Sequence record: MT944117.1
DNA length: 64,000 nt
Direction: 5' to 3' (one strand)
From: Escherichia phage PNJ1809-36
Below, piece after piece: positions 10,866 to 62,806 of this stretch. The notes beneath the pieces were generated by a model. The model had not been told where the DNA came from, ran no database searches, and worked only from the letters and a program-made list of their open reading frames with translations. Made by a program: the position numbers and the translations under genes. The stretch's first letter is position 1. Every line of letters begins with the position of its first letter.

Positions 10866-10880
10866 TTTTTGTCTCCTCTA

Positions 10881-12170: not shown

Positions 12171-12171
12171 A

Positions 12172-15460: not shown

Positions 15461-15463
15461 AAC

Positions 15464-16057: not shown

Positions 16058-16071
16058 TGTTTTTCTCCTTA

Positions 16072-16509
16072 TTAACGTCGCTTGCTACGAGATGAACTCT
16101 TTTTACTTAAAGGGCTATTGTAAGATTTACGAGTTGTATAGCTACTATTTGTTTTAAAAGTTTGTCTCGGCTTTTCATAAGTTTTTATCTCTTGTTTAGG
16201 CTTACCATAAAAATTAGTTTTCGGTTTAGGTGTATTATAATGCTTATTAATAATCGTTCTGTTATCGTTATAATCCCCACTGCTACGATTACTACCACCA
16301 CTCATCATATGCCCTAACAACATACCTGTAGCAAACTCACCAACACCGCTACTACTAGAACCGCCACCATTGTTGATAATAGTTGTATCTCCGTCAGATC
16401 CTTGTTGAGCGTATTGTTGAGGAGGTTGTTGGTATTGTGCAGGATTTGTTTCATCCTCGCAAGCTGTTAAAAAGATACAACCAATTAAAATCAGGGCTAG
16501 TTTTTTCAT
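16072..16509 (-). CDS. lipoprotein (Gly/Ser-rich)
   Basis: ORF track trimmed to ATG with GAGGA SD; MKKLALILIGCIFLTAC has a lipobox (LTAC). Confidence 0.5.
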   Translation of the reverse strand: MKKLALILIGCIFLTACEDETNPAQYQQPPQQYAQQGSDGDTTIINNGGGSSSSGVGEFATGMLLGHMMSGGSNRSSGDYNDNRTIINKHYNTPKPKTNFYGKPKQEIKTYEKPRQTFKTNSSYTTRKSYNSPLSKKSSSRSKRR

Positions 16510-16696
16510 ATTTGCTTTCCTCATTTTGACTATTAATACATCTGTGTTTGAAATCTCCAGAGAAGCAATAAAGTTGCTCTCCATCTCGGTATAAACTCAC
16601 TTTACTGCCGTTGATTACGCTTGTCAATACAAAAATTACAACAAACAACCCTATTGCAAAACAAATATTTTCAAACACAACCAACAAGTATTTCAT
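16451..16696 (-). CDS. possible small membrane protein (81 aa)
   Basis: ORF track; hydrophobic N-terminus; 3' part overlaps lipoprotein gene. Confidence 0.25.
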   Translation of the reverse strand: MKYLLVVFENICFAIGLFVVIFVLTSVINGSKVSLYRDGEQLYCFSGDFKHRCINSQNEESKYEKTSPDFNWLYLFNSLRG

Positions 16697-17043
16697 TTTA
16701 AAAATACCTCATCATCAGTCTCATTATCCCAGAAGAACAAATCCCAACCATTCGGATCATTCCATTTGGCTGCTGGAGAAGTCCATATTTGTTCGATATC
16801 AATATTCAAAACTTCACCGTTTCGTTTTGAAACAGCTTTAGTTAATTCCCAACGAGATACAGGCTCTACTTCCCCTGAACCACTCCCACAACAAGCTACC
16901 ACGTTAGGAGGCAAATTAATTGGATCTTTGGTCACGATCATAACGCTTACCCCAGGGTAAACTTTTGAAAGATAATCTAAAACGTAATCCACATCACCAG
17001 ATAAATCCCAAACAAGTTCTTGAATTTCATCAAAATTATTCAT
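16693..17043 (-). CDS. hypothetical protein (116 aa)
   Basis: ORF track; AGGAGAG SD. Confidence 0.5.
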   Translation of the reverse strand: MNNFDEIQELVWDLSGDVDYVLDYLSKVYPGVSVMIVTKDPINLPPNVVACCGSGSGEVEPVSRWELTKAVSKRNGEVLNIDIEQIWTSPAAKWNDPNGWDLFFWDNETDDEVFLK

Positions 17044-17053
17044 AAGTCTCTCC

Positions 17054-17079
17054 TATAAAATAGCCTCCCGAAGGAGGCT
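17054..17079 (-). terminator. intrinsic terminator after TerC
   Basis: Minus-strand gagccTCC-UUCG-GGAggcu followed by AUUUUAU. Confidence 0.5.
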
Positions 17080-17085
17080 CATCTA

Positions 17086-18060
17086 TTAAACAGCAGCTTC
17101 TTCTTTTTCAGGGAAGATAAAGCTTGCAATAACACCAAGAGCTAATGTGCCTAGAACAATCATCAGACTTACGTTAGGGGAAATATCATGCGGGAGGAAT
17201 GACCACTTGGCATGAAGTGTTTCACCGAACGGGTGATACATAAGTTTAGCACCAACAAACACCAGAACCACAGCAACAGCTTTCTCTAAGTGAACCAGAT
17301 ATTTCACAGCTACACTTAACACAAAGAAAAGTGCACGTAAACCAAGAACAGCCATCAGCATTGCAGAATAAACTAGCAGAGGTTCTTGTGTCACACCGAT
17401 CACAGCCGGAACTGAATCAAAAGAGAAGACAATATCTGTAAGCTCAATAACAAACACACAAAGAATAGCAGGAGTTGCATATTTAATACCATTCTTAATG
17501 GTGATGAACTTTTCACCATCCAGTGCATTGTGCACAGGCAGAACTTTACCTACTAAACGAACAGCCCAATGCTTAGAGTAATCAATATCCTCTTCTTCGT
17601 CACCACCTTTGATGATAGCCACGGCAGACCAAGCTACAATCAAACCGAACAACACTTGGACCGACCAATGAAGGTTAAACAAAGCGGTCCCTGCTGCAAC
17701 AAAAATACCTCGGAAGACAATGGCTCCTGCAATCCCCCAAAGTAAAATCTTATGTTGGAGATGTGTGCTCTTAATTCCAAAGCTTGCAAAAATTGCCATG
17801 AACACCATCAGGTTATCTACAGAAAGACTCTTTTCCAACACATAGCCACTTAGGAAAAGCGCGGCAAACTCTTTACCATGTTCTACCCAAATGAATGCGT
17901 AATATCCTAAAGCTAAAGCAATCCAAAAAACAGACCAAAGCAAAGCAGATTTAATTCCAATTTCTTTATTCTCTTTGTGACCAAAGAAATCAATACCAAT
18001 AGACAATGCTAAAATACCAACTAAAACAACTACATCAATAATTGGGAAACCAAGTTGCAT
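17086..18060 (-). CDS. TerC-family integral membrane protein
   Basis: 324 aa, multi-pass hydrophobic; LEKSLSVDN and FSFDSVPAV match the two TerC DN/DS motifs. Confidence 0.7.
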   Translation of the reverse strand: MQLGFPIIDVVVLVGILALSIGIDFFGHKENKEIGIKSALLWSVFWIALALGYYAFIWVEHGKEFAALFLSGYVLEKSLSVDNLMVFMAIFASFGIKSTHLQHKILLWGIAGAIVFRGIFVAAGTALFNLHWSVQVLFGLIVAWSAVAIIKGGDEEEDIDYSKHWAVRLVGKVLPVHNALDGEKFITIKNGIKYATPAILCVFVIELTDIVFSFDSVPAVIGVTQEPLLVYSAMLMAVLGLRALFFVLSVAVKYLVHLEKAVAVVLVFVGAKLMYHPFGETLHAKWSFLPHDISPNVSLMIVLGTLALGVIASFIFPEKEEAAV

Positions 18061-18077
18061 TCTTTTCTCCTCTCTTT

Positions 18078-18136
18078 GCGGGGAACTATTCCCCGCTTCA
18101 TGTGATATATCTTACTCTTTTTAAGAACTATGTCAA
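18078..18136 (-). promoter_or_regulatory. promoter plus leader-hairpin cassette driving TerC (TTGACA-16-TAAGAT, hairpin gcggggaaTAGttccccgc)
   Basis: Same architecture as the rightward cassettes at 40.3-50 kb, on the minus strand. Confidence 0.55.
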
Positions 18137-18139
18137 CAC

Positions 18140-18361
18140 TTATTTTGTTGAATGAGAGGAAAAGATTCCTCGTAATACAGCCAGAATAAACGAAACACAA
18201 ACCACGGTCCAGAAGGTTACTGGGACAGTGATATCTGCATGACCCATAACTTCAGCAACATAGTTGTAAGCCAGCAACAGTAACCAAGCTGGAATCAAAC
18301 TAAGCATAAAAGCAATAACAAAAAAGCTTACCACTGCAACAATACCTGCAAAAACACCCAT
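18140..18361 (-). CDS. small membrane protein (73 aa)
   Basis: ORF track; two hydrophobic segments; GAGGAG SD. Confidence 0.45.
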   Translation of the reverse strand: MGVFAGIVAVVSFFVIAFMLSLIPAWLLLLAYNYVAEVMGHADITVPVTFWTVVCVSFILAVLRGIFSSHSTK

Positions 18362-18373
18362 ACTAATCTCCTC

Positions 18374-18847
18374 TTAAAGTTTATAAATAGTCACATCGTG
18401 ACCTGTTTTTACTAAAGTTTCTTCAATCATCACTTGGATGATAGCCCAATTACCTCCAGCATATCCAGCGCCAATCATAGGTAAGCCGATCTTACATTTT
18501 TGGTCACGGAGAAGCAAATCGTTAGCCATAGCTATTAGTGCATCGTAAAGTGCATCATAGTCCAACTGACGACCTTTAGCATTGTATCCGTAACGGTATT
18601 GCCCGTATAGATTATATACCAAAGGGTCTGATTGTTCGTCTGGCACCCCTAAACTAAAACAACCTAGTTTACTTTGATCACCAGCCATTGTGTCTAAGTC
18701 TGCTGCATATGCGTAAGGAAATGCTTGTTTGATTTGTGGGGCAATACCTGCCCCCATATTACACATACAGTTGCAACAATGAGCAATAACAGTTACTTCA
18801 CCTGCTTTAGCGGCATCAATAAGATTACCTGTTTTCATTTTAAGCAT
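18374..18847 (-). CDS. macro-domain-like protein
   Basis: ORF track trimmed to ATG with AAGGAG SD right after PRTase stop; GNLIDAAKAGEVTVIAHCCNC...GAGIA and KIGLPMIGAGYAGG resemble the macro-domain N- and C-terminal motifs. Confidence 0.5.
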   Translation of the reverse strand: MLKMKTGNLIDAAKAGEVTVIAHCCNCMCNMGAGIAPQIKQAFPYAYAADLDTMAGDQSKLGCFSLGVPDEQSDPLVYNLYGQYRYGYNAKGRQLDYDALYDALIAMANDLLLRDQKCKIGLPMIGAGYAGGNWAIIQVMIEETLVKTGHDVTIYKL

Positions 18848-18860
18848 TTTTAGCTCCTTA

Positions 18861-19688
18861 TTACAGAATGTGTTGTTTTGTGTAACGATCCAAGAATTCA
18901 AAGTTTTCAGCATACTTTGAAATTCGGTTGTAACCTTCTCCCAAGCATCCAAAGAAAAGTTGCTCTACATAGTAATGTGGCAATTGGCTAAGAATGATTT
19001 TGAAGTCTTCATGATTTTGGCCCATAAGATACTTAATAGGACGAACAAGACACTGTGCATCACGTTCTTCATTAATCATTTTAACAAACGCTTCTGGTGT
19101 ATTAATGTAGTTAAAATTCAGTTTAGCTTCGGTATCTGCTTGATTACCTTCGTATTTTGCAAAATACAAGAAGTAAACATCATTTTTAACTTGATTTTCA
19201 TCAAGGATCTCAATCAGTTTGTCTTCATGCGTTCCAGTGATATTTACATCATCAATGAATACAAGCTTCTTATCACCCCAGAATTCTTTGTTACAGTAGA
19301 ATGTATCCCCATCAATAAGTTTCTTACGACTAGCTTTATCCAAGAAACCATAATCGTTGATATAGCTAACTTTACGATGAATAATGTCCAGTTCTGCTGA
19401 ACGACCTTGATCATATTGTGCTTGCAACATATTAAAGTAATTAATAAAATGATCTGTCATCATTGTTGCAGCATTATGCACATGGTTGTAAGGAGAAGGA
19501 ATGATAACAAATTGTTCCCCAATATGTTTCATTGCCACTTGAGCAAAAAACTGAAGTGCCAATTCTTTACCCATACGACGCGCGGCTTGGTTACTACCAA
19601 ATTTCAATTTTGAATAATCTTGGATATCAAAAGTAGCAGTTTCCAGGTCATCAAATTTATTTGCAAAAATTTGAGTTTGATTACGCAT
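18861..19688 (-). CDS. phosphoribosyltransferase (PRTase) domain protein
   Basis: 275 aa; type I PRTase PRPP-binding motif KLVFIDDVNITGTHED. Confidence 0.6.
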   Translation of the reverse strand: MRNQTQIFANKFDDLETATFDIQDYSKLKFGSNQAARRMGKELALQFFAQVAMKHIGEQFVIIPSPYNHVHNAATMMTDHFINYFNMLQAQYDQGRSAELDIIHRKVSYINDYGFLDKASRKKLIDGDTFYCNKEFWGDKKLVFIDDVNITGTHEDKLIEILDENQVKNDVYFLYFAKYEGNQADTEAKLNFNYINTPEAFVKMINEERDAQCLVRPIKYLMGQNHEDFKIILSQLPHYYVEQLFFGCLGEGYNRISKYAENFEFLDRYTKQHIL

Positions 19689-20337
19689 TTACAATTTCTC
19701 CTCTTTTAAGTTTCTCTAGTAAGTCGTTAGGGTTCTTAATATGACAGAAGTTAAATCCTAAGTCAACACATTTTCCATCATATTCTTCACTATCGCCTAC
19801 GTGCAATACTTCGTGCCCTAACAGAGGGATCGGAGAATACGTGAGCGTGCGAGCAAAGAATCGCGGATCTGGTTTACAAAGTAAAGCTTCATCCGAGAAA
19901 TGGGTGAACTCAAAACAATTCCAACTATCAAACTTACAAGCACGACGCAGGATATCCCCTGATATAAAGTTGGTATTGCTCTTAATACTCAAATCATAAC
20001 GTCCCGAAAGATACAGCAAGTACATCGGCAGATCCACGGCTACGTGTGGTGGAAACTTAAGGAACCACTGTTCACACTCGAAACGAAGCTTTGCAGACTT
20101 CCAAGGTGTTATCCCAAGTTCAGAACCAAGTCTTTCCCAGGCGTATGCTGCACACTCGGCTTTGCCTTGAAGTGCTGCATTATCCAGTTCCTTTTTGATC
20201 TTTTTATAAGCTGCTCTTGCTTCAACTTCCGTAATATCTCCATATTTTGCGATAGTCCAGGCTCGCATGTCTGCGTAATTGGAGTTTGCTGTGATCAGTG
20301 TGTTCCATACATCAAAAGAGATATGTTTAATAGTCAT
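19681..20337 (-). CDS. HAD-superfamily hydrolase (variant motif I)
   Basis: 218 aa; ISFDVWNTLI (second Asp replaced by Trp), KPDP, VLHVGDSEEYD. Confidence 0.55.
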   Translation of the reverse strand: MTIKHISFDVWNTLITANSNYADMRAWTIAKYGDITEVEARAAYKKIKKELDNAALQGKAECAAYAWERLGSELGITPWKSAKLRFECEQWFLKFPPHVAVDLPMYLLYLSGRYDLSIKSNTNFISGDILRRACKFDSWNCFEFTHFSDEALLCKPDPRFFARTLTYSPIPLLGHEVLHVGDSEEYDGKCVDLGFNFCHIKNPNDLLEKLKRGEIVNA

Positions 20338-20338
20338 A

Positions 20339-20944
20339 TTAAGCCCACCATGCGTCTAAGTTAAGATTACTGTCCACTACCACTTGTTCTATGTGGTAGC
20401 CTTTTATCTGTATCCCACTGTTCAAGAGCATATCATACGCTTCATTGAAACGCAACTTATCTTCTGCGGAATATAAGCGAGCATTATAAAATCGGTAATC
20501 AACTTCTTCAGCATTAGAAGAAATACGGAAGAAGTTTGTTTCTACTTCGGGATCACTTGCTGAAGTCTTAATGTGAACTTCTCCGTAATTTTCTTTACTT
20601 AGATCCATGAAAAGAACACAGGCAACATGTTTAAACATTCGTTCCAGTTTGTAACGAACAACATTGAAGCCTGCATTCTCAAGTTTTTCTACACACTGCA
20701 ACATTAAAGTAGTGTCGAGATCGCTTTGATACTTTGTTAACATACGATCACGTTGAGACTTTGTATCCCGATGTAAATCAATTGTTGTGCATTTGGCACC
20801 AATAATCTTAGCTGCTTTCATCAACTCTTCAGAACTAACGTTAGATAAAGTAAGATGAAAATGGGCTTTCCACACTTTTTTAGCAGGGACACCAAAAGAT
20901 TTATCCCCACTATTCGGCATGTTGACTACTACACTATGTTGCAT
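20339..20944 (-). CDS. hypothetical protein (201 aa) co-operonic with HAD/PRTase
   Basis: ORF track; GAGGAG SD. Confidence 0.5.
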   Translation of the reverse strand: MQHSVVVNMPNSGDKSFGVPAKKVWKAHFHLTLSNVSSEELMKAAKIIGAKCTTIDLHRDTKSQRDRMLTKYQSDLDTTLMLQCVEKLENAGFNVVRYKLERMFKHVACVLFMDLSKENYGEVHIKTSASDPEVETNFFRISSNAEEVDYRFYNARLYSAEDKLRFNEAYDMLLNSGIQIKGYHIEQVVVDSNLNLDAWWA

Positions 20945-27869: not shown

Positions 27870-28223
27870 TTAGTTTACATCGTTTAGAGCATTACCAATC
27901 TTTAAGATAATAACATCATTAAGAGCTTCTTCTCCATTAAGGCCAGAGAAAGCAGGAGTAACGAAAGTTACCATATAATAATGGTCTTCTTGTAGGATTG
28001 CGATAACGCCGTCTAGTTTAACATCTCCTGTGAAACGAAAAACTTTCAACTTTTGTTCTAAAGGAAGATCTCCTTCAACATTTAAAACCATATCTCCGAC
28101 ACCAAACCTTTCTGCCCCGATGTAGATGTAAGCTTGGTCCTCTTTTTTATGATAATACAATGTTGCTTGTTTGTCTTGTAGTGTTGTGATACCAAACACA
28201 TCTACATCAATAATATTTTTCAA
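27870..28223 (-). CDS. hypothetical protein (about 117 aa)
   Basis: ORF track 27870..28280 trimmed to TTG with GGAGGAG SD overlapping upstream stop. Confidence 0.4.
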   Translation of the reverse strand: MKNIIDVDVFGITTLQDKQATLYYHKKEDQAYIYIGAERFGVGDMVLNVEGDLPLEQKLKVFRFTGDVKLDGVIAILQEDHYYMVTFVTPAFSGLNGEEALNDVIILKIGNALNDVN

Positions 28224-28588
28224 AAATTCTCCTCCCAAATCCAATAATTGTCTACATAAGTAGGATGCCTTTTGTCCCACTCTTTTCTAGCCCAAGCTAC
28301 GGCTGCTACCAATACATCTCCATGACAAAGTTGAGGTGAGCAGAAGCAAACTAAATCTTTCCCTTCTAACTCTAATAAATCTTCAAGAGGGATCTTACCA
28401 CAACGAATTTGCTCCCACAACCACTCTTTATACCTTTGTATGGTTGATCCTCGTGGTTCATCATCTTTTAACTTAAAAGGATTTGCAAACTTAGAGGCTT
28501 TTAGTCCCATATGTGGCATTGCTCTACCAATATAAACAGCACCCTCTGGGATTGTTTTGCCTAAATGGTAAAAGTTTAATACCTTCAT
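28220..28588 (-). CDS. DUF4326-like protein
   Basis: 122 aa; GAVYIGR...SKFANPF resembles the DUF4326 signature. Confidence 0.45.
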   Translation of the reverse strand: MKVLNFYHLGKTIPEGAVYIGRAMPHMGLKASKFANPFKLKDDEPRGSTIQRYKEWLWEQIRCGKIPLEDLLELEGKDLVCFCSPQLCHGDVLVAAVAWARKEWDKRHPTYVDNYWIWEENF

Positions 28589-32747: not shown

Positions 32748-32777
32748 TTGTTTTCTCCTTTTGTTTGGTAGGAGTTG

Positions 32778-32805
32778 ATCTTAACAAGATTAAAAAGTAT
32801 GTCAA
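32778..32805 (-). promoter_or_regulatory. leftward sigma70-like promoter (TTGACA-16-TAAGAT)
   Basis: In the 114-bp divergent intergenic region; minus-strand read. Confidence 0.5.
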
Positions 32806-32808
32806 TAC

Positions 32809-32836
32809 TTGATCTGAAATTATTTTCAGGTATCAT
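32809..32836 (+). promoter_or_regulatory. rightward sigma70-like promoter (TTGATC-16-TATCAT)
   Basis: About 25 nt upstream of the ATG at 32862. Confidence 0.4.
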
Positions 32837-32861
32837 GTATGAACATTAACAAGAGAGGTAG

Positions 32862-33155
32862 ATGATGAACATTACTTTAGCAACTAAGAATATTTCTGAA
32901 ACAATTAACGGTTTTGGTGTTATTGTAGCCTTGCACGGTAACAACGAGAAATGGTTGGCTTCTTTTGAAGAGGATCGTCAACACAATATCATTTTAGACG
33001 CTCCTATAAAAGTTATGCATATCCTTGGTGAAAACAAAGTGCTCACTTCCTCCCGTTCAAAGGAACAAATTACAAACGAATTAGTAAAACTGCTTGACAA
33101 TGTTCTTAACATGTTCGATAATGCACCTATCGACACAAAACGTGTCTTAATGTGA
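32862..33155 (+). CDS. hypothetical protein (97 aa)
   Basis: ORF track; AGAGAGG SD. Confidence 0.5.
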   Translation: MMNITLATKNISETINGFGVIVALHGNNEKWLASFEEDRQHNIILDAPIKVMHILGENKVLTSSRSKEQITNELVKLLDNVLNMFDNAPIDTKRVLM

Positions 33156-33167
33156 AAGGAGAATATA

Positions 33168-33659
33168 ATGGCTTACCCTGATTACATTGACGAACGTGCT
33201 ATGGGTTTCTTCCGTAACTTCTTGGTTGGTCGTTCTCACGGAGACAACGGTTCCAGTTATAAAACAAGCTGGGATAGTCAATGTGGCGCTAAGGCTACCA
33301 AAACTTTGAAAATGCCAGGTCGTCCGTTGTGCGCGTATTGTGGTAATGAAGCCTTAGCTCTTCAACCTGGTATTGAACATGGTGATTATACTATTAAAGG
33401 TTACACTTGTGTCTGCAAAGGTGCAATGGACGAGGCGGATTGGGTAAAAGAAAAAGCAGAGATGGAGGAACGCCATAAACGAGAAGTTTATGAAATGGAA
33501 AAACGTATGCCTGTTCCAGATTTGCAAGTTAAGAAAAATATTGTTGCGAAAATGATGGAAAAAGTCCAGAAAGCAGAGACGGAAGAAGACCTAAACCGTG
33601 CACTGGAAAACTTGCGTAATTTTAAAGAAGAAAAAGAGTTGCGCGAGATTATGTGGTAA
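33168..33659 (+). CDS. hypothetical Cys-containing protein (163 aa)
   Basis: ORF track; CAYCG...CVCKG; AAAGGAGAA SD. Confidence 0.5.
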   Translation: MAYPDYIDERAMGFFRNFLVGRSHGDNGSSYKTSWDSQCGAKATKTLKMPGRPLCAYCGNEALALQPGIEHGDYTIKGYTCVCKGAMDEADWVKEKAEMEERHKREVYEMEKRMPVPDLQVKKNIVAKMMEKVQKAETEEDLNRALENLRNFKEEKELREIMW

Positions 33660-35479: not shown

Positions 35480-35836
35480 ATGAAAAAACTAATCTTAGCC
35501 ACATTGCTGGCTACCGTAAGCTTCACCACTTACGCTCAAAAATTTGTAGCAGTTAAAACGGATATTGGTAAAGATGTTGTGATCACAGGCAACAAATTTT
35601 ACTATACACCTGGGAATGGTGTTCTAGAAGAGTGCCAAGATGTTGAGGCATATACAGGAAAAGAAGATAACACGGAACGTCCTTTTTATTCGATTATAGC
35701 TACTTGCAAAAATGAAATAGTAGCTATTAAACAATACAAAGATGCCCCTGGAGGAGAGTACTTGTTAGTCAAGAATATTAAGAGTGAAAAAACTGCAAAG
35801 TTTACAGTAATTATTTTAAAAGGAGAAACGTTCTAA
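35480..35836 (+). CDS. secreted protein (about 118 aa)
   Basis: ORF track trimmed to ATG with GGAGGGAAG SD; signal peptide MKKLILATLLATVSFTTYAQ. Confidence 0.45.
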   Translation: MKKLILATLLATVSFTTYAQKFVAVKTDIGKDVVITGNKFYYTPGNGVLEECQDVEAYTGKEDNTERPFYSIIATCKNEIVAIKQYKDAPGGEYLLVKNIKSEKTAKFTVIILKGETF

Positions 35837-36975
35837 TGAAATACACTATTTTTGGAGATGTAGCTGTTGTAAATAAGGAATATGGCGTTGAAGCTAATAA
35901 ACTTCCTGCTGGAGTTTGGGTTGTCAACTGCGATCCGCACGGTAACTACTCTTTAGTGCGTGGCGAAAGTTTCTCTCTTCCGAACACTCTTTATGGGGAA
36001 ACTAAAGATCGCGCCGCACATGTTATTAAAACATTTGCTCGTCGTAGTAAAGAAGGTAAAAATACTGGGGTGTTACTGACAGGGACAAAAGGCAGTGGTA
36101 AGACGATGTTAGCTAAACTGATTAGCATGTCTCTAATGTCCACAGAAGGTTTAGGTATTCCAACCATTTTGGTTACACAGCCTTACACAGATGCTGGATT
36201 CTTAGAATTTATGAGTAAAATTACAGATCGTGCTGTTGTTTTATTTGACGAATTTGATAAAGTGTATGCTAAGAAAGAAGATCAGGAAGCACTGTTGACC
36301 TTGTTGGATGGAACAGGAAGTGGGAATAAACTTTACATCCTCACTAAAAATAGTGGTTATATCTCGGAATATTTTGTAAACCGTCCTAGTCGTATCTACT
36401 ACAGTTTCAATTACGATAAACTGTCTAGTGAAACTATGTTAGATTACTTGGATAAGAACTTGGTAAATAAAAAACACGTAGATAACTTCCAACGTTTATG
36501 GGATGTTAGCACAGAGTTGTCTTTCGATGTTATTCAAGGCATTGTAGAAGAATTGAATTTCTATCCAAAAATGACTTTTAAAGAATGTCTTGAAATGATG
36601 GGTATTTCTTTAGGCAATGATGCTAAATGGAATGTGGTTTCTATTGTAGCTAATGGCAAAACCTTGAAGGTGAATTGGATCAATAACTGGCACGACTTTA
36701 CCCCTACTAAGTTTTTGTCGGGTGCTTGTTCCTTGAACATCTATCTACAAAGCTTGAAAGATGATGAAGTGGAAGCAATGGAAACCAATAGTTATGTTAT
36801 CCTAGACGAAGATGGCGACCCACATATTGATCTATGTGCAACTGCTGATGGTCTAACTTGTGATCTGATTGAAGGTGGTAAGATCCTGGTGATGAGCACT
36901 ACACCAGGAAACACTCTGCGAGTGGTGCTGGAGCCTGTAACGCAGCGATCTACCACACTGGGTAGCGTATTCTGA
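35836..36975 (+). CDS. AAA+ ATPase
   Basis: 379 aa; Walker A GTKGSGKT, Walker B VVLFDEFDK. Confidence 0.55.
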   Translation: MKYTIFGDVAVVNKEYGVEANKLPAGVWVVNCDPHGNYSLVRGESFSLPNTLYGETKDRAAHVIKTFARRSKEGKNTGVLLTGTKGSGKTMLAKLISMSLMSTEGLGIPTILVTQPYTDAGFLEFMSKITDRAVVLFDEFDKVYAKKEDQEALLTLLDGTGSGNKLYILTKNSGYISEYFVNRPSRIYYSFNYDKLSSETMLDYLDKNLVNKKHVDNFQRLWDVSTELSFDVIQGIVEELNFYPKMTFKECLEMMGISLGNDAKWNVVSIVANGKTLKVNWINNWHDFTPTKFLSGACSLNIYLQSLKDDEVEAMETNSYVILDEDGDPHIDLCATADGLTCDLIEGGKILVMSTTPGNTLRVVLEPVTQRSTTLGSVF

Positions 36976-36991
36976 TACAGCACAAATAGCT

Positions 36992-37016
36992 AAACCCGCT
37001 TCGGCGGGTTTTGTTA
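36992..37016 (+). terminator. intrinsic terminator after AAA+ ATPase gene
   Basis: aaacccgc-UUCG-gcggguuu followed by U-tract. Confidence 0.65.
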
Positions 37017-37053
37017 TATTGATTTCAGTTTAATAGGAAGAGAATTGTTAGAT

Positions 37054-38052
37054 ATGCCAGTAAAGAAGAGTATTGAAACATATATGGAAGAATGTAAGCC
37101 GATAGCTGAGGCTAAAGGGATTACCATTCTCGGCACGTATGGAGAAGATAAAGGTGTGCATACGAAGATGATCAATCGTTGTGAGCATGGTCATGAATGG
37201 AATACTACAACGTTTCACAGTTTTAAAGATGGTCGAGGTTGTCCTAAGTGCGCCTACAGGGAACGTTCGAAAAAGAGAAGCAAAGCTATCACTATTCCAG
37301 ACCAGCAACACATACAAGATTTTATGAAGGTAGGTAAATTTAAGGAAGGCACTATTTTCACCAATACAGGAGAACGTAAAGGGTGTGATATAGTATGGAT
37401 GGTTGAATGTCCTGTTTGCTCTCATGATGAATATGTGGAAGCTGGGGTGTGTGATGGTAAATTCTATGCTACCGGAAGTCATCTTAAACGTGGGTGTCTC
37501 CCTTGCCGCTGTTCTACAAGTTACAAATACACAGAGGATCAGACCACCTATAGAACAAGAAAGGAAGTAGAAAGGAGAGGATATATATGGGTAGGATGGA
37601 TCGGTAAACCTTCAACAATGGGTAAGTTTAAATATGGATGTAAGGAGCACGGGGAACAGATAGGGCGTGCAGATGGTTTGCTACATAAGGGGAGTGGGTG
37701 TCCGCAGTGCGGGGGCCAAAACCAACAACAATGTTACATTAATCATATTTATGATGAAGATGGTATTCTTTGTGCACTGAAGTTTGGTATTGCCAATAGT
37801 AGTGATCGCCGTATCAAAGAACAGAATAGCCGCAATGTGTTTACTATGAGACAAGTTCAAGTGTGGCAGTTCCCCACTGTGAAGCAGTGCAAAAATTCAG
37901 AAAAGTATTGCAAAAAGGTGTTAGACACAGAAGCAGTGAGCAAATATGCTATGCCAGACGGCTACACAGAAACAGTGGAGCTATCTTGTCTGGCATCAAT
38001 ACAAAACATTTATAAACTTTATGGTGGAATATTACAGGAGGAAACATGTTAG
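37054..38052 (+). CDS. Cys-rich protein with repeated CxxC pairs (about 332 aa)
   Basis: ORF track trimmed to ATG with AGGAAGAG SD; GCPKC, CPVC, CLPCRC, GCPQCGG suggest several zinc ribbons; fold unknown. Confidence 0.5.
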   Translation: MPVKKSIETYMEECKPIAEAKGITILGTYGEDKGVHTKMINRCEHGHEWNTTTFHSFKDGRGCPKCAYRERSKKRSKAITIPDQQHIQDFMKVGKFKEGTIFTNTGERKGCDIVWMVECPVCSHDEYVEAGVCDGKFYATGSHLKRGCLPCRCSTSYKYTEDQTTYRTRKEVERRGYIWVGWIGKPSTMGKFKYGCKEHGEQIGRADGLLHKGSGCPQCGGQNQQQCYINHIYDEDGILCALKFGIANSSDRRIKEQNSRNVFTMRQVQVWQFPTVKQCKNSEKYCKKVLDTEAVSKYAMPDGYTETVELSCLASIQNIYKLYGGILQEETC

Positions 38053-38411
38053 TTGACGTTCAAATTATGCGCAACGAAAGAATGGACTTCTTTGAAGCAG
38101 TAGAGAAACATCTGATCAGATGGGACTATGAATTTGTTCCTGCTGGATGTGGACCAGTAGAGCATTTAGCGGAAGACGATGATGTATACATGATCATTCG
38201 TCAAGTGTACCAGACAGACCAGTGTGAAGAAACTCCCGAACTGATTTTGTTTGAGTGTAAAGATCTTGCAAAATATTTTGACTATGGCGGAAAAGAGGGT
38301 CATAATCTCTCCAGATACAATAAACGTCTACTTATCTTAGACTACATGCGGAACAACAAACACAAACTCATCGACGCAGACGCAGTTTATGGCTACTGGT
38401 GGATGGATTAA
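38046..38411 (+). CDS. hypothetical protein (121 aa)
   Basis: ORF track; GGAGGA SD. Confidence 0.45.
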   Translation: MLVDVQIMRNERMDFFEAVEKHLIRWDYEFVPAGCGPVEHLAEDDDVYMIIRQVYQTDQCEETPELILFECKDLAKYFDYGGKEGHNLSRYNKRLLILDYMRNNKHKLIDADAVYGYWWMD

Positions 38412-38424
38412 CAAAGGAGAAACT

Positions 38425-38613
38425 ATGGCACGTTTAGCAGATAACCCTGTATTCTACCCCGTTCTTGATCTTTATGATGAATTGACATATGTTGTGGAGC
38501 GGTATAATTACAATGAAGACCTCTTGGAGACAAACCTTAAAGTAGTTCTGATGAAAGCCTATCAGCAAGGGCAACGTGAAATTTTGGAGAGTATGAAAAA
38601 TGCGAATAACTGA
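38425..38613 (+). CDS. hypothetical protein (about 62 aa)
   Basis: ORF track trimmed to ATG with AAAGGAGAAA SD. Confidence 0.4.
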   Translation: MARLADNPVFYPVLDLYDELTYVVERYNYNEDLLETNLKVVLMKAYQQGQREILESMKNANN

Positions 38614-39142
38614 TGATTATGTATTCTTCTTTTCACATAAAGATGTTTTTAGTAATTGGTATATTGCACCCTTTACAGAAACCGAACCAAGTTACAATCA
38701 GACATTTAATTGTGTCGAACAATACATGATGTGGCGTAAAGCTTTGCTTTTTAATGATCACAACACTGCACAGGCTATTCTGACTCATAGCTTAAAACGA
38801 GAAGATGAGAAGATACAAGCTTATTACAAACGTATGGGTAGGGCAGTAGCAGGTTTCGATAACAAAATATGGGAAGAGAATCGTGAGCGTATTGTTATGC
38901 GAGGTTTATGCTTGAAGTATGTACAGAATCCAGACTTGTATGCCGATTTACGTCTATATCAATACAAAACATTTGTTGAAGCAAGTCCTTACGATAAGGT
39001 ATACGGAATTGGAATGGGGATGTATGAACCAGGGGTGCTAAACCCTGCCACCTGGAAAGGGCAGAATCTTTTAGGCAAATATCATAACAAACTGATCGAA
39101 ATACTTTTCCCAGACAAAATACCGCAAAGACGATATTTGTGA
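38600..39142 (+). CDS. NADAR (DUF1768, YbiA-like) domain protein
   Basis: 180 aa; FFFSHKDVFSNW, NCVEQYMMWRKALLF and ASPYDKVYGIGMG...GQNLLGKYHNKL parallel the E. coli YbiA/NADAR motifs (FSNF, EHYFQAQKF, DAYWGDG...GKNRLG). Confidence 0.7.
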   Translation: MRITDDYVFFFSHKDVFSNWYIAPFTETEPSYNQTFNCVEQYMMWRKALLFNDHNTAQAILTHSLKREDEKIQAYYKRMGRAVAGFDNKIWEENRERIVMRGLCLKYVQNPDLYADLRLYQYKTFVEASPYDKVYGIGMGMYEPGVLNPATWKGQNLLGKYHNKLIEILFPDKIPQRRYL

Positions 39143-39197
39143 TATTTTAACTTTTTTCATTTTTAGAACAAAGGTGTCACTTTGTAGCACAGAAATA

Positions 39198-39234
39198 AGG
39201 CTCCTACAGCACCGTAGAGAGCCTGTTATTTTGT
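39198..39234 (+). terminator. intrinsic terminator after NADAR gene
   Basis: aggcuccuac-AGCACC-guagagagccu followed by GUUAUUUUGU. Confidence 0.5.
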
Positions 39235-39365
39235 CCTATACAAACCCTTATCTTTTTCAGTTTGCATCACTAGGATTCGATCTAAGTGGGTTCCTGAAGG
39301 TTTACCAATAAGATTAAAGGTTATCTCAAATTCCCACTACCTATTATCTCAAAAATCCCTCAAAT

Positions 39366-39431
39366 TATTTAAACTTTTTAAGAATTTACAAAAGTGAAAG
39401 TTGAAAACCAAAATTTAAAGTTTAGGAAAAT
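39366..39431. repeat. direct repeat copy 1 (about 65 bp, AT-rich)
   Basis: atttaaac...tttacaaaagtgaaagttgaaaaccaaaatttaaagtttaggaaaatt, imperfect copy of 39505..39570. Confidence 0.6.
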
Positions 39432-39504
39432 TATCTTAAAATGTTAGATACAAAACAAAACTCAAAAGTCAAGGAAAATTTTAAAAATTTTGCGCGCCCA
39501 CAGT

Positions 39505-39570
39505 ATTTAAAGTTTTTTTGCTTTTACAAAAATGAAAGTACAAAAGCAAAATTTAAAGTTTACAAAAATT
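39505..39570. repeat. direct repeat copy 2
   Basis: atttaaag...tttacaaaaatgaaagtacaaaagcaaaatttaaagtttacaaaaattt. Confidence 0.6.
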
Positions 39571-39610
39571 TATGCAGATGGGAATGAGAAGAGTTCTCAT
39601 ATGGAAATGC

Positions 39611-39631
39611 AAATGATAATGATTCGCATTT
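39611..39631. promoter_or_regulatory. Fur-box-like operator A
   Basis: aaATGATAATGATTcgCATTt versus E. coli Fur consensus GATAATGATAATCATTATC. Confidence 0.4.
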
Positions 39632-39668
39632 AGGTTTATAAATGAGATTGATTCTTATTTGATAAGGT

Positions 39669-39689
39669 AAATGATAATCATTCTCATTT
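39669..39689. promoter_or_regulatory. Fur-box-like operator B
   Basis: aAATGATAATCATTcTCATTt. Confidence 0.45.
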
Positions 39690-39915
39690 AGAGAATGACG
39701 CGCAGGGGCGGTGTTTGTCTCGCGCTCCCGTGTCCCCTCGCCATGTAATAAGAATAACAGATCCAGCCAGGAAAGCAAGCGATTATTTTATCTTTACATT
39801 TCTTTACAAATATATAGCGCCCAGCCTACCGGCGATCAACCTTCCAACCAGCGCCCTGGTATGTTAGCCCCGCCTTTACGCCGTGGGGTGGCGCTTCCTC
39901 TTCTGTATGTAAAAC

Positions 39916-39944
39916 AGTATAAGCCCGATCCCTGGGCTTGTCAA
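39916..39944 (-). promoter_or_regulatory. consensus sigma70 promoter (TTGACA-17-TATACT) firing leftward into ORF-poor GC-rich DNA
   Basis: Minus-strand read TTGACAagcccagggatcgggctTATACT; spacer holds the palindrome agccc/gggct. Confidence 0.55.
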
Positions 39945-39946
39945 GA

Positions 39947-40213
39947 TTATTTTTTGTTTTCTTGCCAGGAAAGGACACCTAACCAAAAATGCATATCGCC
40001 CCGCGCCCCTGGTGGGATCTTGCTTTCCCCGCCGCCACTGCAAGCCCATAAATAACCATCAGCAAACGGATCAAAATGGTCTATCTCTTCCACCTTATGA
40101 TCGCCCAGGTTGAGAACGGTTTCAACCTTTAAGCCCGTTGCGCTTGCTACCTGGTGCACCGTGCCGCCTTGCCAGCCCAATGAGTGCATAAGGTGTAATG
40201 TAGTATTTGTCAT
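39947..40213 (-). CDS. hypothetical protein (88 aa) in GC-rich island
   Basis: ORF track; coding-like composition; upstream promoter TTGCTA-17-TATCAT at 40261..40289 and a GC leader hairpin. Confidence 0.35.
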   Translation of the reverse strand: MTNTTLHLMHSLGWQGGTVHQVASATGLKVETVLNLGDHKVEEIDHFDPFADGYLWACSGGGESKIPPGARGDMHFWLGVLSWQENKK

Positions 40214-40260
40214 GGTGTCGCCCTTTCTTTGTTGTGCGCCCTGGTTGGCGCGGTAGAAAG

Positions 40261-40289
40261 ATGATAGCCCTTTCTTTTATATATAGCAA
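40261..40289 (-). promoter_or_regulatory. sigma70-like promoter (TTGCTA-17-TATCAT) for the 88-aa gene
   Basis: Minus-strand read; followed by GC hairpin gcgcc-AACCAG-ggcgc. Confidence 0.4.
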
Positions 40290-40322
40290 GCAAAAAGAAA
40301 ATAAAAAAGATTGAAAAAGTGA

Positions 40323-51826: not shown

Positions 51827-51845
51827 AAATAATAATCATTCTCAT
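51827..51845. promoter_or_regulatory. Fur-box-like operator D
   Basis: taAATAATAATCATTcTCat. Confidence 0.35.
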
Positions 51846-52006
51846 ATGAATAATAGTCTGCTTGTCATGAGCGGGATTAGTTGACAATGTTCCGTCATAT
51901 GATGAGGTTGCCAAACCATTGATAAATAAGTGTTTGTGTGATTTATAATCAAGCGGCCCACCTTGTCGCTATGTTGGCATGAGCCTTGCATAAGTCATTG
52001 AATACG

Positions 52007-52025
52007 AATGATAATTATTCTCATT
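52007..52025. promoter_or_regulatory. Fur-box-like operator E
   Basis: AATGATAATtATTcTCATT. Confidence 0.4.
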
Positions 52026-52284
52026 CGCATGATATTTGGGAATTGTCGCTGCGTGGACCTGACGGCCCGAAAATTCGCGTTAAGCACTTCTTACGTATGT
52101 GCCATGATTTTTGCCATATGATATTGATTCTACTAGATATTCTTGCCATGATTGCCATGAAACAGGGTGTCCCGAAATAATCTCTCCCTGTAGATATTTT
52201 GGGTTACTTTTTATACAAGAGTGGGGTGTCAAAAATAATTGGTATATATGGGATAATTGATAGGAATCCCCTATGATAATTCGA

Positions 52285-52366: not shown

Positions 52367-52741
52367 ATGCAAGAGAGTAAAAATGTTCCGTTGAGTAGTG
52401 CAACATTGCTTCGCTTCTATAAAGCATGGATTGCCAACTATCCTGCAATGAATCGCACAACGAGTGGCTTATGTGGTTGTCTGGTAGATTATGTAGATGA
52501 TTTTGTTGGTGAGACAACTAGAGAAGAAGATAGAAGATGGCGTGATCATTTGTTGGACCGTTTGAAATATGAAATGAGGAAACAATTTACATGTGCAGGG
52601 CTGGACTACAATCTTCCGTTCAATGCAGATTGCATGGATTACCTTTCAGAGTGTATAAACTTGGCGTGTCATACCAACACGTTACGTCTTCAATGGGTGA
52701 AAGACAGAATCGAAGATGCAAATAATGCTTGCATTGAATAA
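52367..52741 (+). CDS. paralog family C member 1 (124 aa)
   Basis: ORF track; shares FY-x-W...GLC-C-L...EM...AGL...PF...L-x-W-VKDR with 57054, 60283, 61048. Confidence 0.5.
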   Translation: MQESKNVPLSSATLLRFYKAWIANYPAMNRTTSGLCGCLVDYVDDFVGETTREEDRRWRDHLLDRLKYEMRKQFTCAGLDYNLPFNADCMDYLSECINLACHTNTLRLQWVKDRIEDANNACIE

Positions 52742-57053: not shown

Positions 57054-57368
57054 ATGTCAGAAGAACTAAAAGAATTTTATCAGGCATATCATAACTGGCT
57101 GTTAGCTGGCGCTCCAGATAATAATCCTTTCTGGCACGATAAAGGATTATGTAGTTGCCTCTACCTTTGGACTGGTGGTTACGATGATCTAAATTATGAA
57201 ATGCAAATGCAATTTCGAGAAGCAGGGTTGTCTGAAGAATACCCGTTTGATGACGGAGACTGGTTTAAATATGATTTTGCACAAAGAAACGGGCTATTGC
57301 ATTTGAATGCTGCCCGTATAAAATGGGTAAAAGATCATGCTACACAGGAGGATGTGCAATGCCAATAG
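57054..57368 (+). CDS. paralog family C member 2 (104 aa)
   Basis: ORF track; FYQAYHNWLLAGAP...GLCSCL...PF...IKWVKD. Confidence 0.5.
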   Translation: MSEELKEFYQAYHNWLLAGAPDNNPFWHDKGLCSCLYLWTGGYDDLNYEMQMQFREAGLSEEYPFDDGDWFKYDFAQRNGLLHLNAARIKWVKDHATQEDVQCQ

Positions 57369-60044: not shown

Positions 60045-60317
60045 ATGAATAAAGATCGGTTTCTTTCTTTAGTCGCGGAAGCTCCTTTTGATGTTCTTGG
60101 GGTGAGATTATGGAAAGACAGAAACTATGGGTTAGATGTTCAAACATACTCTCTTTGGTTGGTTGGGGAGCACAGTTTAGATGAAAGCTTGTGCATGGGT
60201 AGGGATTCTCGTTCCCTCTGTTTAAAGTTCAGAAGCTTAGAACGCGCAAACAAAGAGCAAGAAAAACTAACGAGGTGGCTAAATGAAAACAAGCGCAAGG
60301 TTGATGGAGTTTTATAA
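60045..60317 (+). CDS. hypothetical protein (90 aa)
   Basis: ORF track. Confidence 0.45.
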   Translation: MNKDRFLSLVAEAPFDVLGVRLWKDRNYGLDVQTYSLWLVGEHSLDESLCMGRDSRSLCLKFRSLERANKEQEKLTRWLNENKRKVDGVL

Positions 60318-60609
60318 AATTTATTTAGCATGGATTGATGTTGGTGCTCCTGATGGTAAACCTTTTCGGCGGGATTGCGGTTTGTGTGCCAACTTATTCG
60401 ACTATGTGCACGCGGATGGCTACAATCCCCTTATAACAACCTTGTCAGATGAAATGCACGCACAGTTTTACCACAAAGGGTTGAGTCAAGAATTACCCTT
60501 CAATGAGAACTACGATGCATATGTCTTAGAATCAGATGCAGAGGTATGTCACCTGAATGTGGACAGGATTAATTGGGTAAGAGATCGTATTGCAGAGGAG
60601 GATGAATAA
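60283..60609 (+). CDS. paralog family C member 3 (108 aa)
   Basis: ORF track; FYKIYLAWIDVGAP...GLCANL...PF...INWVRDR. Confidence 0.5.
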   Translation: MKTSARLMEFYKIYLAWIDVGAPDGKPFRRDCGLCANLFDYVHADGYNPLITTLSDEMHAQFYHKGLSQELPFNENYDAYVLESDAEVCHLNVDRINWVRDRIAEEDE

Positions 60610-60836: not shown

Positions 60837-61051
60837 TCATGTGGATTGTGCGTCTTAAGTATGATGGCAAGTTTCCGTGGGAGAAAGATGTTTGTGCTTG
60901 TGATTCGGCAGCACATGCCAAAGCAGCGGGTCAGGCAGTAGTTGACATGTATAACAACACTTCCGTTGATCCAGAAATGGCAGGTGTTACAATGAGCATG
61001 TTCACTTACTATTCTTTTGAGGTTTACTATCATGAAGGAGAGTGGAAATGA
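60833..61051 (+). CDS. hypothetical protein (72 aa)
   Basis: ORF track. Confidence 0.4.
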   Translation: MIMWIVRLKYDGKFPWEKDVCACDSAAHAKAAGQAVVDMYNNTSVDPEMAGVTMSMFTYYSFEVYYHEGEWK

Positions 61052-61368
61052 GCGAAGAACTATTAACATTTTACCGCACGTATTTGGCATGGTTGGAAGC
61101 TGGTGCTCCTGAAGGCGAACCGTTCACCCGTTGCACAGGTTTGTGCTCGAACCTCTATCATTTTTACGATATGGGTGAAAGCGAACGATACGAACCCGTA
61201 CTGGATGAAATGCATGAGCAGTTCTACCGCAAAGGTTTGGTTATGGTGTTGCCTTTCAACAGTAATTTTGGAAAGTACACCTTAGAAGCGGAAAAAAGCC
61301 GCTGTCACTTGAATGTGGATCGTGTGAACTGGGTAAAAGAACGTGTAGCAGAAGAAATAATTGGTTGA
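61048..61368 (+). CDS. paralog family C member 4 (about 106 aa)
   Basis: ORF track trimmed to ATG with AAGGAGAG SD; FYRTYLAWLEAGAP...GLCSNL...PF...VNWVKER. Confidence 0.5.
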   Translation: MSEELLTFYRTYLAWLEAGAPEGEPFTRCTGLCSNLYHFYDMGESERYEPVLDEMHEQFYRKGLVMVLPFNSNFGKYTLEAEKSRCHLNVDRVNWVKERVAEEIIG

Positions 61369-62748: not shown

Positions 62749-62777
62749 TTGACAAGTGTTTATTCGTTTTGTAAAGT
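62749..62777 (+). promoter_or_regulatory. sigma70-like promoter (TTGACA-17-TAAAGT) for recombinase gene
   Basis: About 30 nt upstream of the ATG at 62807. Confidence 0.5.
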
Positions 62778-62806
62778 GGGAATACAGCAATGGTTTAGGA
62801 GTGGTT

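What the first reader, a model, noticed from the sequence alone, without database searches (positions are those of the whole stretch)
38600..39142. NADAR-domain protein as a candidate reverser of ADP-ribosylation
The 180-aa protein carries the hallmark NADAR/YbiA motifs. NADAR enzymes have been reported to remove ADP-ribose from guanine, and a macro-domain gene sits elsewhere in the window. The pair could counter ADP-ribosylating toxins or defence systems such as DarT-type enzymes.
Basis: partly seen in the sequence, partly recalled or inferred. Interest (0 to 1): 0.55.

Follow-up and report, generated by a model that had tools for sequence, protein, structure and literature searches.

The report
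Phage NADAR enzyme, likely anti-DarTG1 factor
This phage gene encodes a NADAR-type enzyme whose close relative in a sister phage genus has been shown experimentally to strip ADP-ribose from DNA and defeat the bacterial DarTG1 defence, so it is a predictable new member of a recently described counter-defence family.

Summary

The protein is 58% identical to AdfN^Bas60 of the sister genus Justusliebigvirus. The two genes are syntenic and fall in an exclusive clade. AdfN^Bas60 is a published orphan-antitoxin NADAR that neutralises DarT1 and rescues phages from DarTG1, but not from DarTG2.

The catalytic and ADP-ribose-contact residues are conserved: E40, K47, R81, W91, R95, E127 and D132. So is K77, the equivalent of a lysine that the DarG1 antitoxin needs to rescue cells from DarT1.

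It is 36% identical (E=1e-20) to T4 Tk.4/AdfM, a reported anti-DarTG2 macrodomain. T4 carries the same NADAR-plus-macro pair.

The Phapecoctavirus protein itself is untested, so its activity and role here are inferred. The two genes are about 20 kb apart on opposite strands, so they are not a linked module. Verdict: new member of a known kind, low to moderate interest.

The parts
38600..39142 (+). NADAR-domain gene (180 aa), a predicted AdfN-type guanine-ADP-ribosyl DNA glycohydrolase and ortholog of AdfN^Bas60
38586..38589 (+). GGAG Shine-Dalgarno-like motif 10 nt upstream of the ATG. The start codon lies inside the last codons of upstream ORF 38389..38613, a 14-nt overlap that suggests translational coupling.
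   Evidence: Read directly from the sequence and ORF coordinates.
39198..39232 (+). Terminator-like hairpin (10-bp stem with one bulge, 6-nt loop) followed by UUAUUUU, about 56 nt after the stop codon. It ends the co-directional gene block.
   Evidence: RNA fold dG -16.9 kcal/mol, z=-4.5, 0 of 200 shuffles as stable. phAPEC8 annotates a terminator at the equivalent place. The consensus scan missed it because of the bulge.
18374..18847 (-). Macrodomain gene (157 aa) of the DarG/TARG1/SCO6735 class, homolog of T4 Tk.4 (AdfM). Candidate thymidine-ADP-ribosyl DNA hydrolase. It is not linked to the NADAR gene.
   Evidence: Pfam Macro 21.8 bits against cut-off 22. PDB 5e3b 3.5e-12, TARG1 3e-6, DarG 5m31 4.6e-5. 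PADLOC DarG 4.9e-9. T4 Tk.4 36% identity, E=1e-20. Asn26 aligns with catalytic N23 of PhiKZ AdfM.

Best explanation
The gene encodes an AdfN-type 'orphan antitoxin'. This is a stand-alone NADAR ADP-ribosylglycohydrolase made by a lytic Phapecoctavirus. It hydrolyses the N-glycosidic bond between ADP-ribose and the exocyclic amino group of guanine in DNA. During infection of E. coli carrying a DarTG1 toxin-antitoxin defence, DarT1 ADP-ribosylates guanines in phage DNA and blocks replication. The phage enzyme removes these adducts, so replication proceeds. Shown here: the fold, the active-site residues, and orthology and synteny with an experimentally validated AdfN. Inferred: the enzymatic activity of this particular protein, its expression from an early or middle + strand block of small genes, and DarT1-type toxins being its natural target.
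Against: No biochemical or genetic data exist for the Phapecoctavirus protein; no paper links this genus with NADAR, AdfN or DarTG. AdfN^Bas60 was tested only when expressed from a plasmid, not by deletion in its own phage. At 58% identity, substrate or context specificity could differ; NADARs with conserved catalytic residues differ strongly in their ability to rescue from DarT1 in vivo. The protein passes NCBIfam TIGR02464 'riboflavin biosynthesis intermediates N-glycosidase' (113 bits against a cut-off of 73.7). It is the Glu type (NADAR/YbiA families) rather than the Asp type of DarT1-linked antitoxins. Glu-type enzymes also remove cytidine-ADPr, so the natural target may be broader than DarT1, or different from it.
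Confidence: 0.7

Rival explanations
1. The enzyme is a broad or differently targeted nucleic-acid de-ADP-ribosylase. It may remove cytidine- as well as guanine-linked ADP-ribose from DNA or RNA. Its real opponents may be non-DarT ADP-ribosyltransferases, such as pierisin/ScARP-like or YarT-like toxins or the toxin of the PADLOC candidate system PDC-M42, with DarT1 only one substrate source among several.
For: [quoted passage not shown] Those families remove both C-ADPr and G-ADPr from DNA and RNA, whereas DarG1s and T4 gp30.3 remove only G-ADPr. It matches PADLOC candidate-defence component PDC-M42C strongly (E=1.1e-35). YbiA-type NADARs serve as antitoxins for the non-DarT toxin YarT. The AdfN authors themselves suggest activity irrespective of which toxin placed the adduct.
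Against: The ortholog demonstrably counters DarTG1. No C-ADPr-based or PDC-M42-based anti-phage activity was found in the papers read. The nearest bacterial relatives examined have no toxin next door.
Confidence: 0.17
2. It is a housekeeping YbiA-like N-glycosidase that destroys reactive riboflavin-pathway intermediates (5-amino-6-ribosylamino-uracil-type compounds) during infection. Many database records imply this with names such as 'GTP cyclohydrolase II', 'YbiA-like N-glycosidase' or 'riboflavin biosynthesis protein'.
Against: It is only about 27% identical to E. coli YbiA over a partial alignment and lies outside its clade. No riboflavin genes are in the window or next to the bacterial relatives examined. 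The published tree places AdfN^Bas60 with non-YbiA, non-DarG1 bacterial NADARs. The 'GTP cyclohydrolase II' label comes from COG3236 domain fusions, not from any cyclohydrolase domain in this protein; Pfam finds only NADAR. E. coli YbiA itself hydrolyses G-ADPr in vitro, so a TIGR02464 match does not discriminate between the two functions.
Confidence: 0.05
3. It acts on or binds non-DNA ADP-ribose species. It might degrade low-molecular-weight ADPr-derived immune signals, or sequester ADP-ribosylated retron msDNA without catalysis, in the way reported for another phage NADAR that inhibits Retron-Eco1.
For: Iyer, Burroughs and Aravind argue that phage Macro, NADAR, SLOG and DUF4326 domains mainly target diffusible ADPr derivatives (PMC9503650). 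The window also encodes a DUF4326 protein. The AdfN paper notes a phage NADAR that works without enzymatic activity, citing Carabias 2024.
Against: All catalytic residues are retained and invariant in the family, which argues for catalysis. The ortholog's demonstrated phenotype is against a DNA-modifying toxin. The Retron-Eco1 paper itself could not be read here.
Confidence: 0.06

Closest known systems
AdfN^Bas60 (bas60_0111, Escherichia phage PaulScherrer/Bas60; identical or near-identical in Bas61 and Bas62; Justusliebigvirus)
   Same: The two proteins are 58% identical over the full domain. They share the genomic position after the AAA ATPase and 'endonuclease' genes, the Glu-type active site and the K77/K84 lysine. 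Both are stand-alone proteins of about 180 aa with no N-terminal extension, encoded by E. coli myoviruses of the same subfamily (Stephanstirmvirinae).
   Different: The phage genus differs. In Phapecoctavirus two small ORFs (38046-38411 and 38389-38613) lie between the endonuclease and NADAR genes. There is a 7-residue indel in the beta-hairpin after strand 2 and the C-terminal tails differ. The window protein is untested.
AdfN^T4 (gp30.3) and T4-type phage NADARs
   Same: Both are phage orphan NADARs, with the catalytic Glu and Lys conserved (E36/K43 in T4, E40/K47 here). The proposed role against DarTG1 is the same. T4 also carries a macrodomain partner, AdfM/Tk.4.
   Different: There is no detectable pairwise sequence similarity (BLAST E=25). 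T4-type proteins have His in the last strand and lack the K77-equivalent lysine. AdfN^T4 needs the T-even infection context and does not rescue uninfected cells. The published tree places it next to DarG1, whereas the Bas60 type groups with stand-alone bacterial NADARs.
DarG1 (DarT1-associated NADAR antitoxin; E. coli C7, G. lovleyi 8BAT)
   Different: The window protein is not adjacent to a DarT1 gene and has no N-terminal extension. It has Glu rather than the functional Asp in the last strand. The family profile does not reach 8BAT at E<1e-3.
Phytophthora nicotianae NADAR (8BAU) and stand-alone bacterial NADARs
   Different: Those are cellular proteins of unknown physiological role, whereas this one is encoded by a lytic phage.
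E. coli YbiA (riboflavin-intermediate N-glycosidase, 2B3W)
   Different: Identity is about 27%. YbiA lacks the K77 equivalent (it has Ala) and the insertion at residues 138-151 before the WKGxNLLG motif. YbiA sits in a LexA-controlled dinG/ybiB context and does not rescue from DarT1 in vivo.

Membership tests
NADAR superfamily (Pfam PF08719) | Profile match above the curated threshold over most of the domain | tested here: met
   E=4.2e-36, 125.1 bits against 35.1, model positions 3-154 of 163.
NADAR superfamily (Pfam PF08719) | [quoted passage not shown] | tested here: met
NADAR superfamily (Pfam PF08719) | [quoted passage not shown] | tested here: met
   E40, K47 and E127 are present, and all are invariant in 95 homologs.
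AdfN (phage orphan anti-DarT1 NADAR) | Encoded by a phage with no cognate DarT toxin adjacent | tested here: met
   The window is a Phapecoctavirus. The neighbours are an AAA ATPase, a CapR/zinc-finger 'endonuclease' and small hypothetical genes, with no ART domain.
AdfN (phage orphan anti-DarT1 NADAR) | Orthology to an experimentally validated AdfN | tested here: met
   58% identity to AdfN^Bas60, conserved synteny and an exclusive clade.
AdfN (phage orphan anti-DarT1 NADAR) | Removes ADP-ribose from guanine in DNA; rescues cells or phage from DarT1/DarTG1 but not DarTG2 | not testable with these tools
   This needs enzyme and plaque assays. It has been shown only for AdfN^Bas60, AdfN^Bas32 and AdfN^T4.
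DarG1 (DarT1-associated, BC4488-type NADAR antitoxin) | Operon partner of DarT1, N-terminal extension, functional Asp in the last strand | tested here: not met
   There is no DarT nearby. The domain starts at residue 4 of a 180-aa protein. It has Glu127 and no Asp two residues upstream. The profile does not retrieve 8BAT.
K-12 YbiA-type riboflavin-intermediate N-glycosidase | Match to NCBIfam TIGR02464 above cut-off | tested here: met
   113 bits against 73.7. The model is an 'equivalog_domain' that evidently covers Glu-type NADARs broadly.
K-12 YbiA-type riboflavin-intermediate N-glycosidase | Clusters with E. coli/plant YbiA; linked or fused to riboflavin genes (ribA/ribD) or to the dinG-ybiB operon | tested here: not met
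   About 27% identity and outside the clade. No rib genes are in the window or beside the bacterial relatives examined.
T4-type phage NADAR (gp30.3 family) | His replacing the last-strand Glu; sequence similarity to gp30.3 | tested here: not met
   Glu127 is at that position. BLAST against gp30.3 is not significant.
AdfM / DarG-type macrodomain (for the second gene, 18374-18847 -) | Macrodomain of the DarG/TARG1 class with the catalytic Asn; homology to a validated AdfM | tested here: met
   PDB hits 5e3b 3.5e-12, TARG1 3e-6 and DarG 4.6e-5. PADLOC DarG 4.9e-9. T4 Tk.4 36% identity, E=1e-20. Asn26 aligns with PhiKZ AdfM N23. Pfam Macro is borderline at 21.8 against 22 bits. No structure was modelled for this protein, and its activity is untested.

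The most novel reading that the evidence does not exclude
The Phapecoctavirus enzyme is a Glu-type NADAR and so may be a broader eraser than the T4 and DarG1 types. It could remove both guanine- and cytidine-linked ADP-ribose from DNA and RNA. Together with the unlinked AdfM-like macrodomain (thymidine-ADPr) and the DUF4326 phosphatase-like protein, it could give the phage a three-enzyme toolkit spread across the genome. That toolkit would cover every known base-ADP-ribosylation chemistry, including defence toxins not yet described such as the one in PADLOC candidate system PDC-M42.
Probability: 0.2. Interest if true: 0.45.

Novelty: new member of a known kind. Interest (0 to 1): 0.2.

Why it matters
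If confirmed, the result extends the AdfN counter-defence family to the whole Phapecoctavirus genus, which includes many therapeutic-candidate E. coli phages. It predicts that these phages are intrinsically resistant to DarTG1 and, through the AdfM-like macrodomain, possibly to DarTG2. That is useful for choosing phages against DarTG-carrying pathogenic E. coli. It would also correct widespread misannotation of this gene as 'GTP cyclohydrolase II', 'DNA methyltransferase' or 'YbiA-like N-glycosidase'. It does not open a new question, because the concept of a NADAR orphan antitoxin plus a macrodomain partner is already published for T4, Bas32, Bas60 and PhiKZ.

Tried and rejected
1. My first macro-domain checks were false negatives. 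The gene belongs to the TARG1/DarG class, which lacks those motifs. It was found only on reading the translations and running profile and PDB searches.

2. A batch Pfam scan through a pseudo-alignment showed only 25 of 38 families and hid the weak Macro hit.

3. Concatenating ORFs with Gly-Ser linkers produced artefactual 'Serglycin' hits, which I ignored.

4. No supplementary tables of the AdfN paper or its preprint (accessions, alignments) are held as text for the look-up tool. I identified AdfN^Bas60 instead through the BASEL genome records and their locus tags.

5. The consensus terminator scan found nothing directly after the gene. Folding showed a bulged hairpin followed by a T-run.

6. 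Rfam found nothing in 38-41 kb, and there are no tRNAs in the window.

7. I considered a toxin-linked origin through bacterial relatives (YarT-like or PDC-M42). The two contexts inspected showed stand-alone genes, so this is unsupported but also under-sampled.

8. The Retron-Eco1 NADAR inhibitor paper is not in the searchable library, so that rival rests on a single sentence in PMC11825919.

9. The second structure-prediction job, the large representative search and the metagenome and genome scans were not used, because the question was settled without them.

Full report
WHAT IS THERE. The window is 96.7% identical over the tested 4 kb to Escherichia phage Mt1B1_P17 and about 90% identical to phAPEC8. 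It is therefore a Phapecoctavirus (Stephanstirmvirinae), a lytic E. coli myovirus of about 150 kb. A GGAG lies 10 nt upstream of the ATG, and the start overlaps the preceding small ORF by 14 nt. About 56 nt after the stop there is a stable bulged hairpin followed by UUAUUUU (dG -16.9 kcal/mol, z=-4.5). phAPEC8's annotators also placed a terminator at that position. The gene closes a co-directional block: an AAA ATPase (35836-36975), a CapR-domain/zinc-finger 'endonuclease' (37045-38052), two small ORFs, then NADAR. The block lies in the + strand half of the window, which consists mostly of small genes of unknown function. A role in early or host-takeover functions is an inference from this layout.

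IS IT A NADAR? Yes, by four independent lines.
- Sequence profiles: Pfam PF08719 gives E=4.2e-36, well above the gathering score, and PHROG 1017 gives E=9.5e-51.
- Solved structures by sequence: the only significant PDB sequence hit is the Phytophthora nicotianae NADAR:ADP-ribose complex 8BAU. A profile of 95 homologs reaches 8BAU at 2e-35 and E. coli YbiA at 1e-16.
- Predicted structure: an AlphaFold2 model built on that alignment has mean pLDDT 95.2 and pTM 0.89.

ACTIVE SITE. Schuller et al. 2023 (PMC11543638) list the residues that hold ADP-ribose in 8BAU and those needed for guanine de-ADP-ribosylation. In my alignment the correspondences are:
- E43 = E40
- K50 = K47
- K75 = K77
- R79 = R81
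- Y84 = F86
- W89 = W91
- R93 = R95
- E125 = E127
- D130 = D132
- W133 = Y135

E40, K47, W91, E127 and D132 are invariant in 95 homologs. E40 and K47 align with E36 and K43 of T4 AdfN, whose alanine mutants lose most counter-defence activity. The last-strand residue is Glu. This places the protein in the 'NADAR/YbiA' group rather than the Asp-type DarT1-linked group or the His-type T4 group.

One detail is suggestive. K77 corresponds to E. coli C7 DarG1 K115, which is dispensable for catalysis but essential for rescue from DarT1. AdfN^Bas60 has this lysine (K84) and rescues uninfected cells. YbiA (Ala) and T4 gp30.3 (Gln) lack it and do not rescue. This is a correlation, not a test.

WHAT IT MOST LIKELY DOES. 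Johannesman et al. 2025 (PMC11825919) showed that phages carry orphan NADARs, which they named AdfN. These remove DarT1-installed ADP-ribose from guanine in DNA and defeat the DarTG1 defence. Besides T4 gp30.3, they tested AdfN^Bas32 and AdfN^Bas60. AdfN^Bas60 comes from BASEL phages Bas60-62. Both proteins neutralised DarT1 in uninfected E. coli and restored RB69, T5 and Bas25 plaquing on DarTG1 hosts. Neither affected DarTG2.

Bas60-62 are phi92-like phages, now classified as Justusliebigvirus, the sister genus of Phapecoctavirus. I located the gene as bas60_0111 in phage PaulScherrer. It is 58% identical to the window protein over 172 residues. It occupies the same position after the ATPase and 'endonuclease' genes and before a repeat-rich spacer. 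The two proteins fall in an exclusive neighbour-joining clade of 19 sequences that excludes all other homologs, YbiA, PnNADAR and T4 gp30.3. Most members with reported contig lengths come from phage-genome-sized contigs.

The best explanation is therefore an AdfN ortholog: a guanine-ADP-ribosyl DNA glycohydrolase that lets the phage replicate in DarTG1 hosts (confidence about 0.7). The steps that remain inferred are the activity of this particular protein, its timing of expression and its natural target. Even AdfN^Bas60 was tested only by ectopic expression, and no paper addresses the Phapecoctavirus protein.

RIVALS.
(a) Riboflavin-intermediate N-glycosidase. The protein passes NCBIfam TIGR02464 (113 bits against 73.7). 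This explains deposited names such as 'GTP cyclohydrolase II' and 'YbiA-like N-glycosidase'. Against this, it is only about 27% identical to YbiA and lies outside its clade. No riboflavin genes occur in the window or beside the bacterial relatives examined. YbiA itself hydrolyses G-ADPr in vitro, so the model match does not discriminate.

(b) A broader or different ADP-ribosylation target. Glu-type NADARs also remove cytidine-ADPr from DNA and RNA, unlike DarG1 and T4 AdfN (PMC12945103). The protein also matches PADLOC candidate-defence component PDC-M42C at 1e-35. This is the most credible alternative, and it overlaps partly with the main explanation.

(c) Action on diffusible ADPr signals, or non-catalytic ADPr binding, as proposed by Iyer et al. 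2022 and as reported for a Retron-Eco1 inhibitor. The full retention of catalytic residues and the ortholog's DNA phenotype argue against this as the main role.

THE MACRO 'PARTNER'. ORF 18374..18847(-) encodes 157 aa. It is a macrodomain of the DarG/TARG1/SCO6735 class:
- Pfam Macro scores 21.8 bits against a cut-off of 22.
- Solved structures: SCO6735 at 3.5e-12, TARG1 at 3e-6 and T. aquaticus DarG at 4.6e-5.
- DarG antitoxin models: PADLOC DarG at 4.9e-9 and NCBIfam antitoxin_DarG at 2e-8, both over the macrodomain part only.

SCO6735 cleaves thymidine-linked DNA ADP-ribosylation (PMC9411070). The window protein is 36% identical (E=1e-20) to T4 Tk.4. The HIDEN-SEQ preprint names Tk.4 AdfM and shows it is required for T4 growth on DarTG2 hosts. 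A chimallivirus AdfM (PhiKZ gp104) is a more distant relative that shares the catalytic Asn.

In this window the two genes are about 20 kb apart, on opposite strands and in different blocks. The macro gene abuts a ComF-like PRTase within a Ter-like cluster. Co-regulation is therefore unlikely, and a metabolic role for the macro protein is not excluded.

NOVELTY AND SCORE. The concept, the family and a 58%-identical ortholog are all published. What is new is only that the family extends to Phapecoctavirus and that many records are misannotated. I rate this as a new member of a known kind, with interest 0.2. The most novel reading not excluded is a broader G/C eraser acting with the macro and DUF4326 proteins as a dispersed anti-ADP-ribosylation toolkit (probability about 0.2, interest if true about 0.45).

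Noticed in passing
window 18374-18847 (-): A macrodomain gene (157 aa) of the DarG/TARG1/SCO6735 class, 36% identical to T4 Tk.4 (AdfM, anti-DarTG2). Relatives annotate it only as 'hypothetical' or 'phosphatase'. It abuts a ComF-like PRTase gene (18861-19688).
   Followed up: yes
window 28220-28588 (-): A DUF4326 protein (Pfam E=4e-19). Iyer et al. 2022 describe this domain as a rhodanese-phosphatase clade predicted to process terminal phosphates of ADP-ribose derivatives, often fused or co-occurring with Macro, NADAR and SLOG in DNA viruses. It is the third ADPr-related gene in the window. It has no PADLOC or NCBIfam hit.
   Followed up: partly
window 39583-39689; also 51827-51847 and 52007-52026: Four palindromes of about 20 nt (AATGAnAnnnnTTCnCATTT) at a strict 29-nt period just downstream of the NADAR terminator, with two more copies about 12 kb away. 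This gives 10 strand matches against 0.05 expected. One of them (39667-39685) matches the E. coli Fur-box consensus at 16 of 19 positions. They may be Fur or operator sites, or iterons.
   Followed up: partly
window 39143-40320: A stretch of about 1.2 kb that is ORF-poor and AT-rich. It contains two 72-nt direct repeats (39361-39432 and 39499-39570, 82% identical) and 29-nt sub-repeats. It also holds a lone minus-strand 88-aa ORF (39947-40213), which Mt1B1_P17 annotates as hypothetical. Relatives annotate 'repeat_region' here. There is no Rfam hit.
   Followed up: partly
window ~10263-20944 (-): A Ter-like stress-response cluster in a lytic phage. Pfam finds TerD, vWA-TerF-like, TelA, SprT-like, TerC and PRTase_3, with a 'hydrolase' annotated in relatives. 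This resembles the Ter-linked nucleoside-like-metabolite systems described by Anantharaman, Iyer and Aravind (recalled from memory). Not every family was assigned individually to an ORF.
   Followed up: no
window 35836-38613 (+): An upstream block that is conserved next to NADAR in both genera. It contains an AAA ATPase, annotated 'FtsH-like protease' in Bas60. It also contains a CapR-homology/treble-clef zinc-finger protein annotated 'endonuclease', which is 335 aa here, 394 aa in phAPEC8 and 467 aa in Bas60. Two small ORFs (38046-38411 and 38389-38613) are present in Phapecoctavirus but absent in Justusliebigvirus.
   Followed up: partly
window 52367-52741, 57054-57368, 60283-60609, 61042-61368 (+): Four paralogous small proteins (104-124 aa) that share a motif like FY..Y..W...GAP...PF....GLC.NL. 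I saw this when reading the translations. Pfam does not recognise the family.
   Followed up: no
window 62756-63478 (+) (probable): Pfam finds a Resolvase N-terminal domain (E=6.7e-18) somewhere among the ORFs. The sequence of this 240-aa ORF looks like a serine recombinase, which is unexpected in a strictly lytic myovirus. The hit was not mapped to an ORF individually.
   Followed up: no
window ~32750-33170: Divergent transcription point. Essentially all long ORFs are on the minus strand up to about 32.7 kb and on the plus strand from about 33.2 kb. The GC skew changes sign at the same place.
   Followed up: no
public records of the same gene (e.g. NC_052662.1 13858-14391; PQ529420.1; MZ501100.1): The orthologs carry inconsistent and probably wrong product names: 'GTP cyclohydrolase II', 'DNA methyltransferase', 'riboflavin biosynthesis protein', 'swarming motility protein' and 'YbiA-like N-glycosidase'.
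   Followed up: partly
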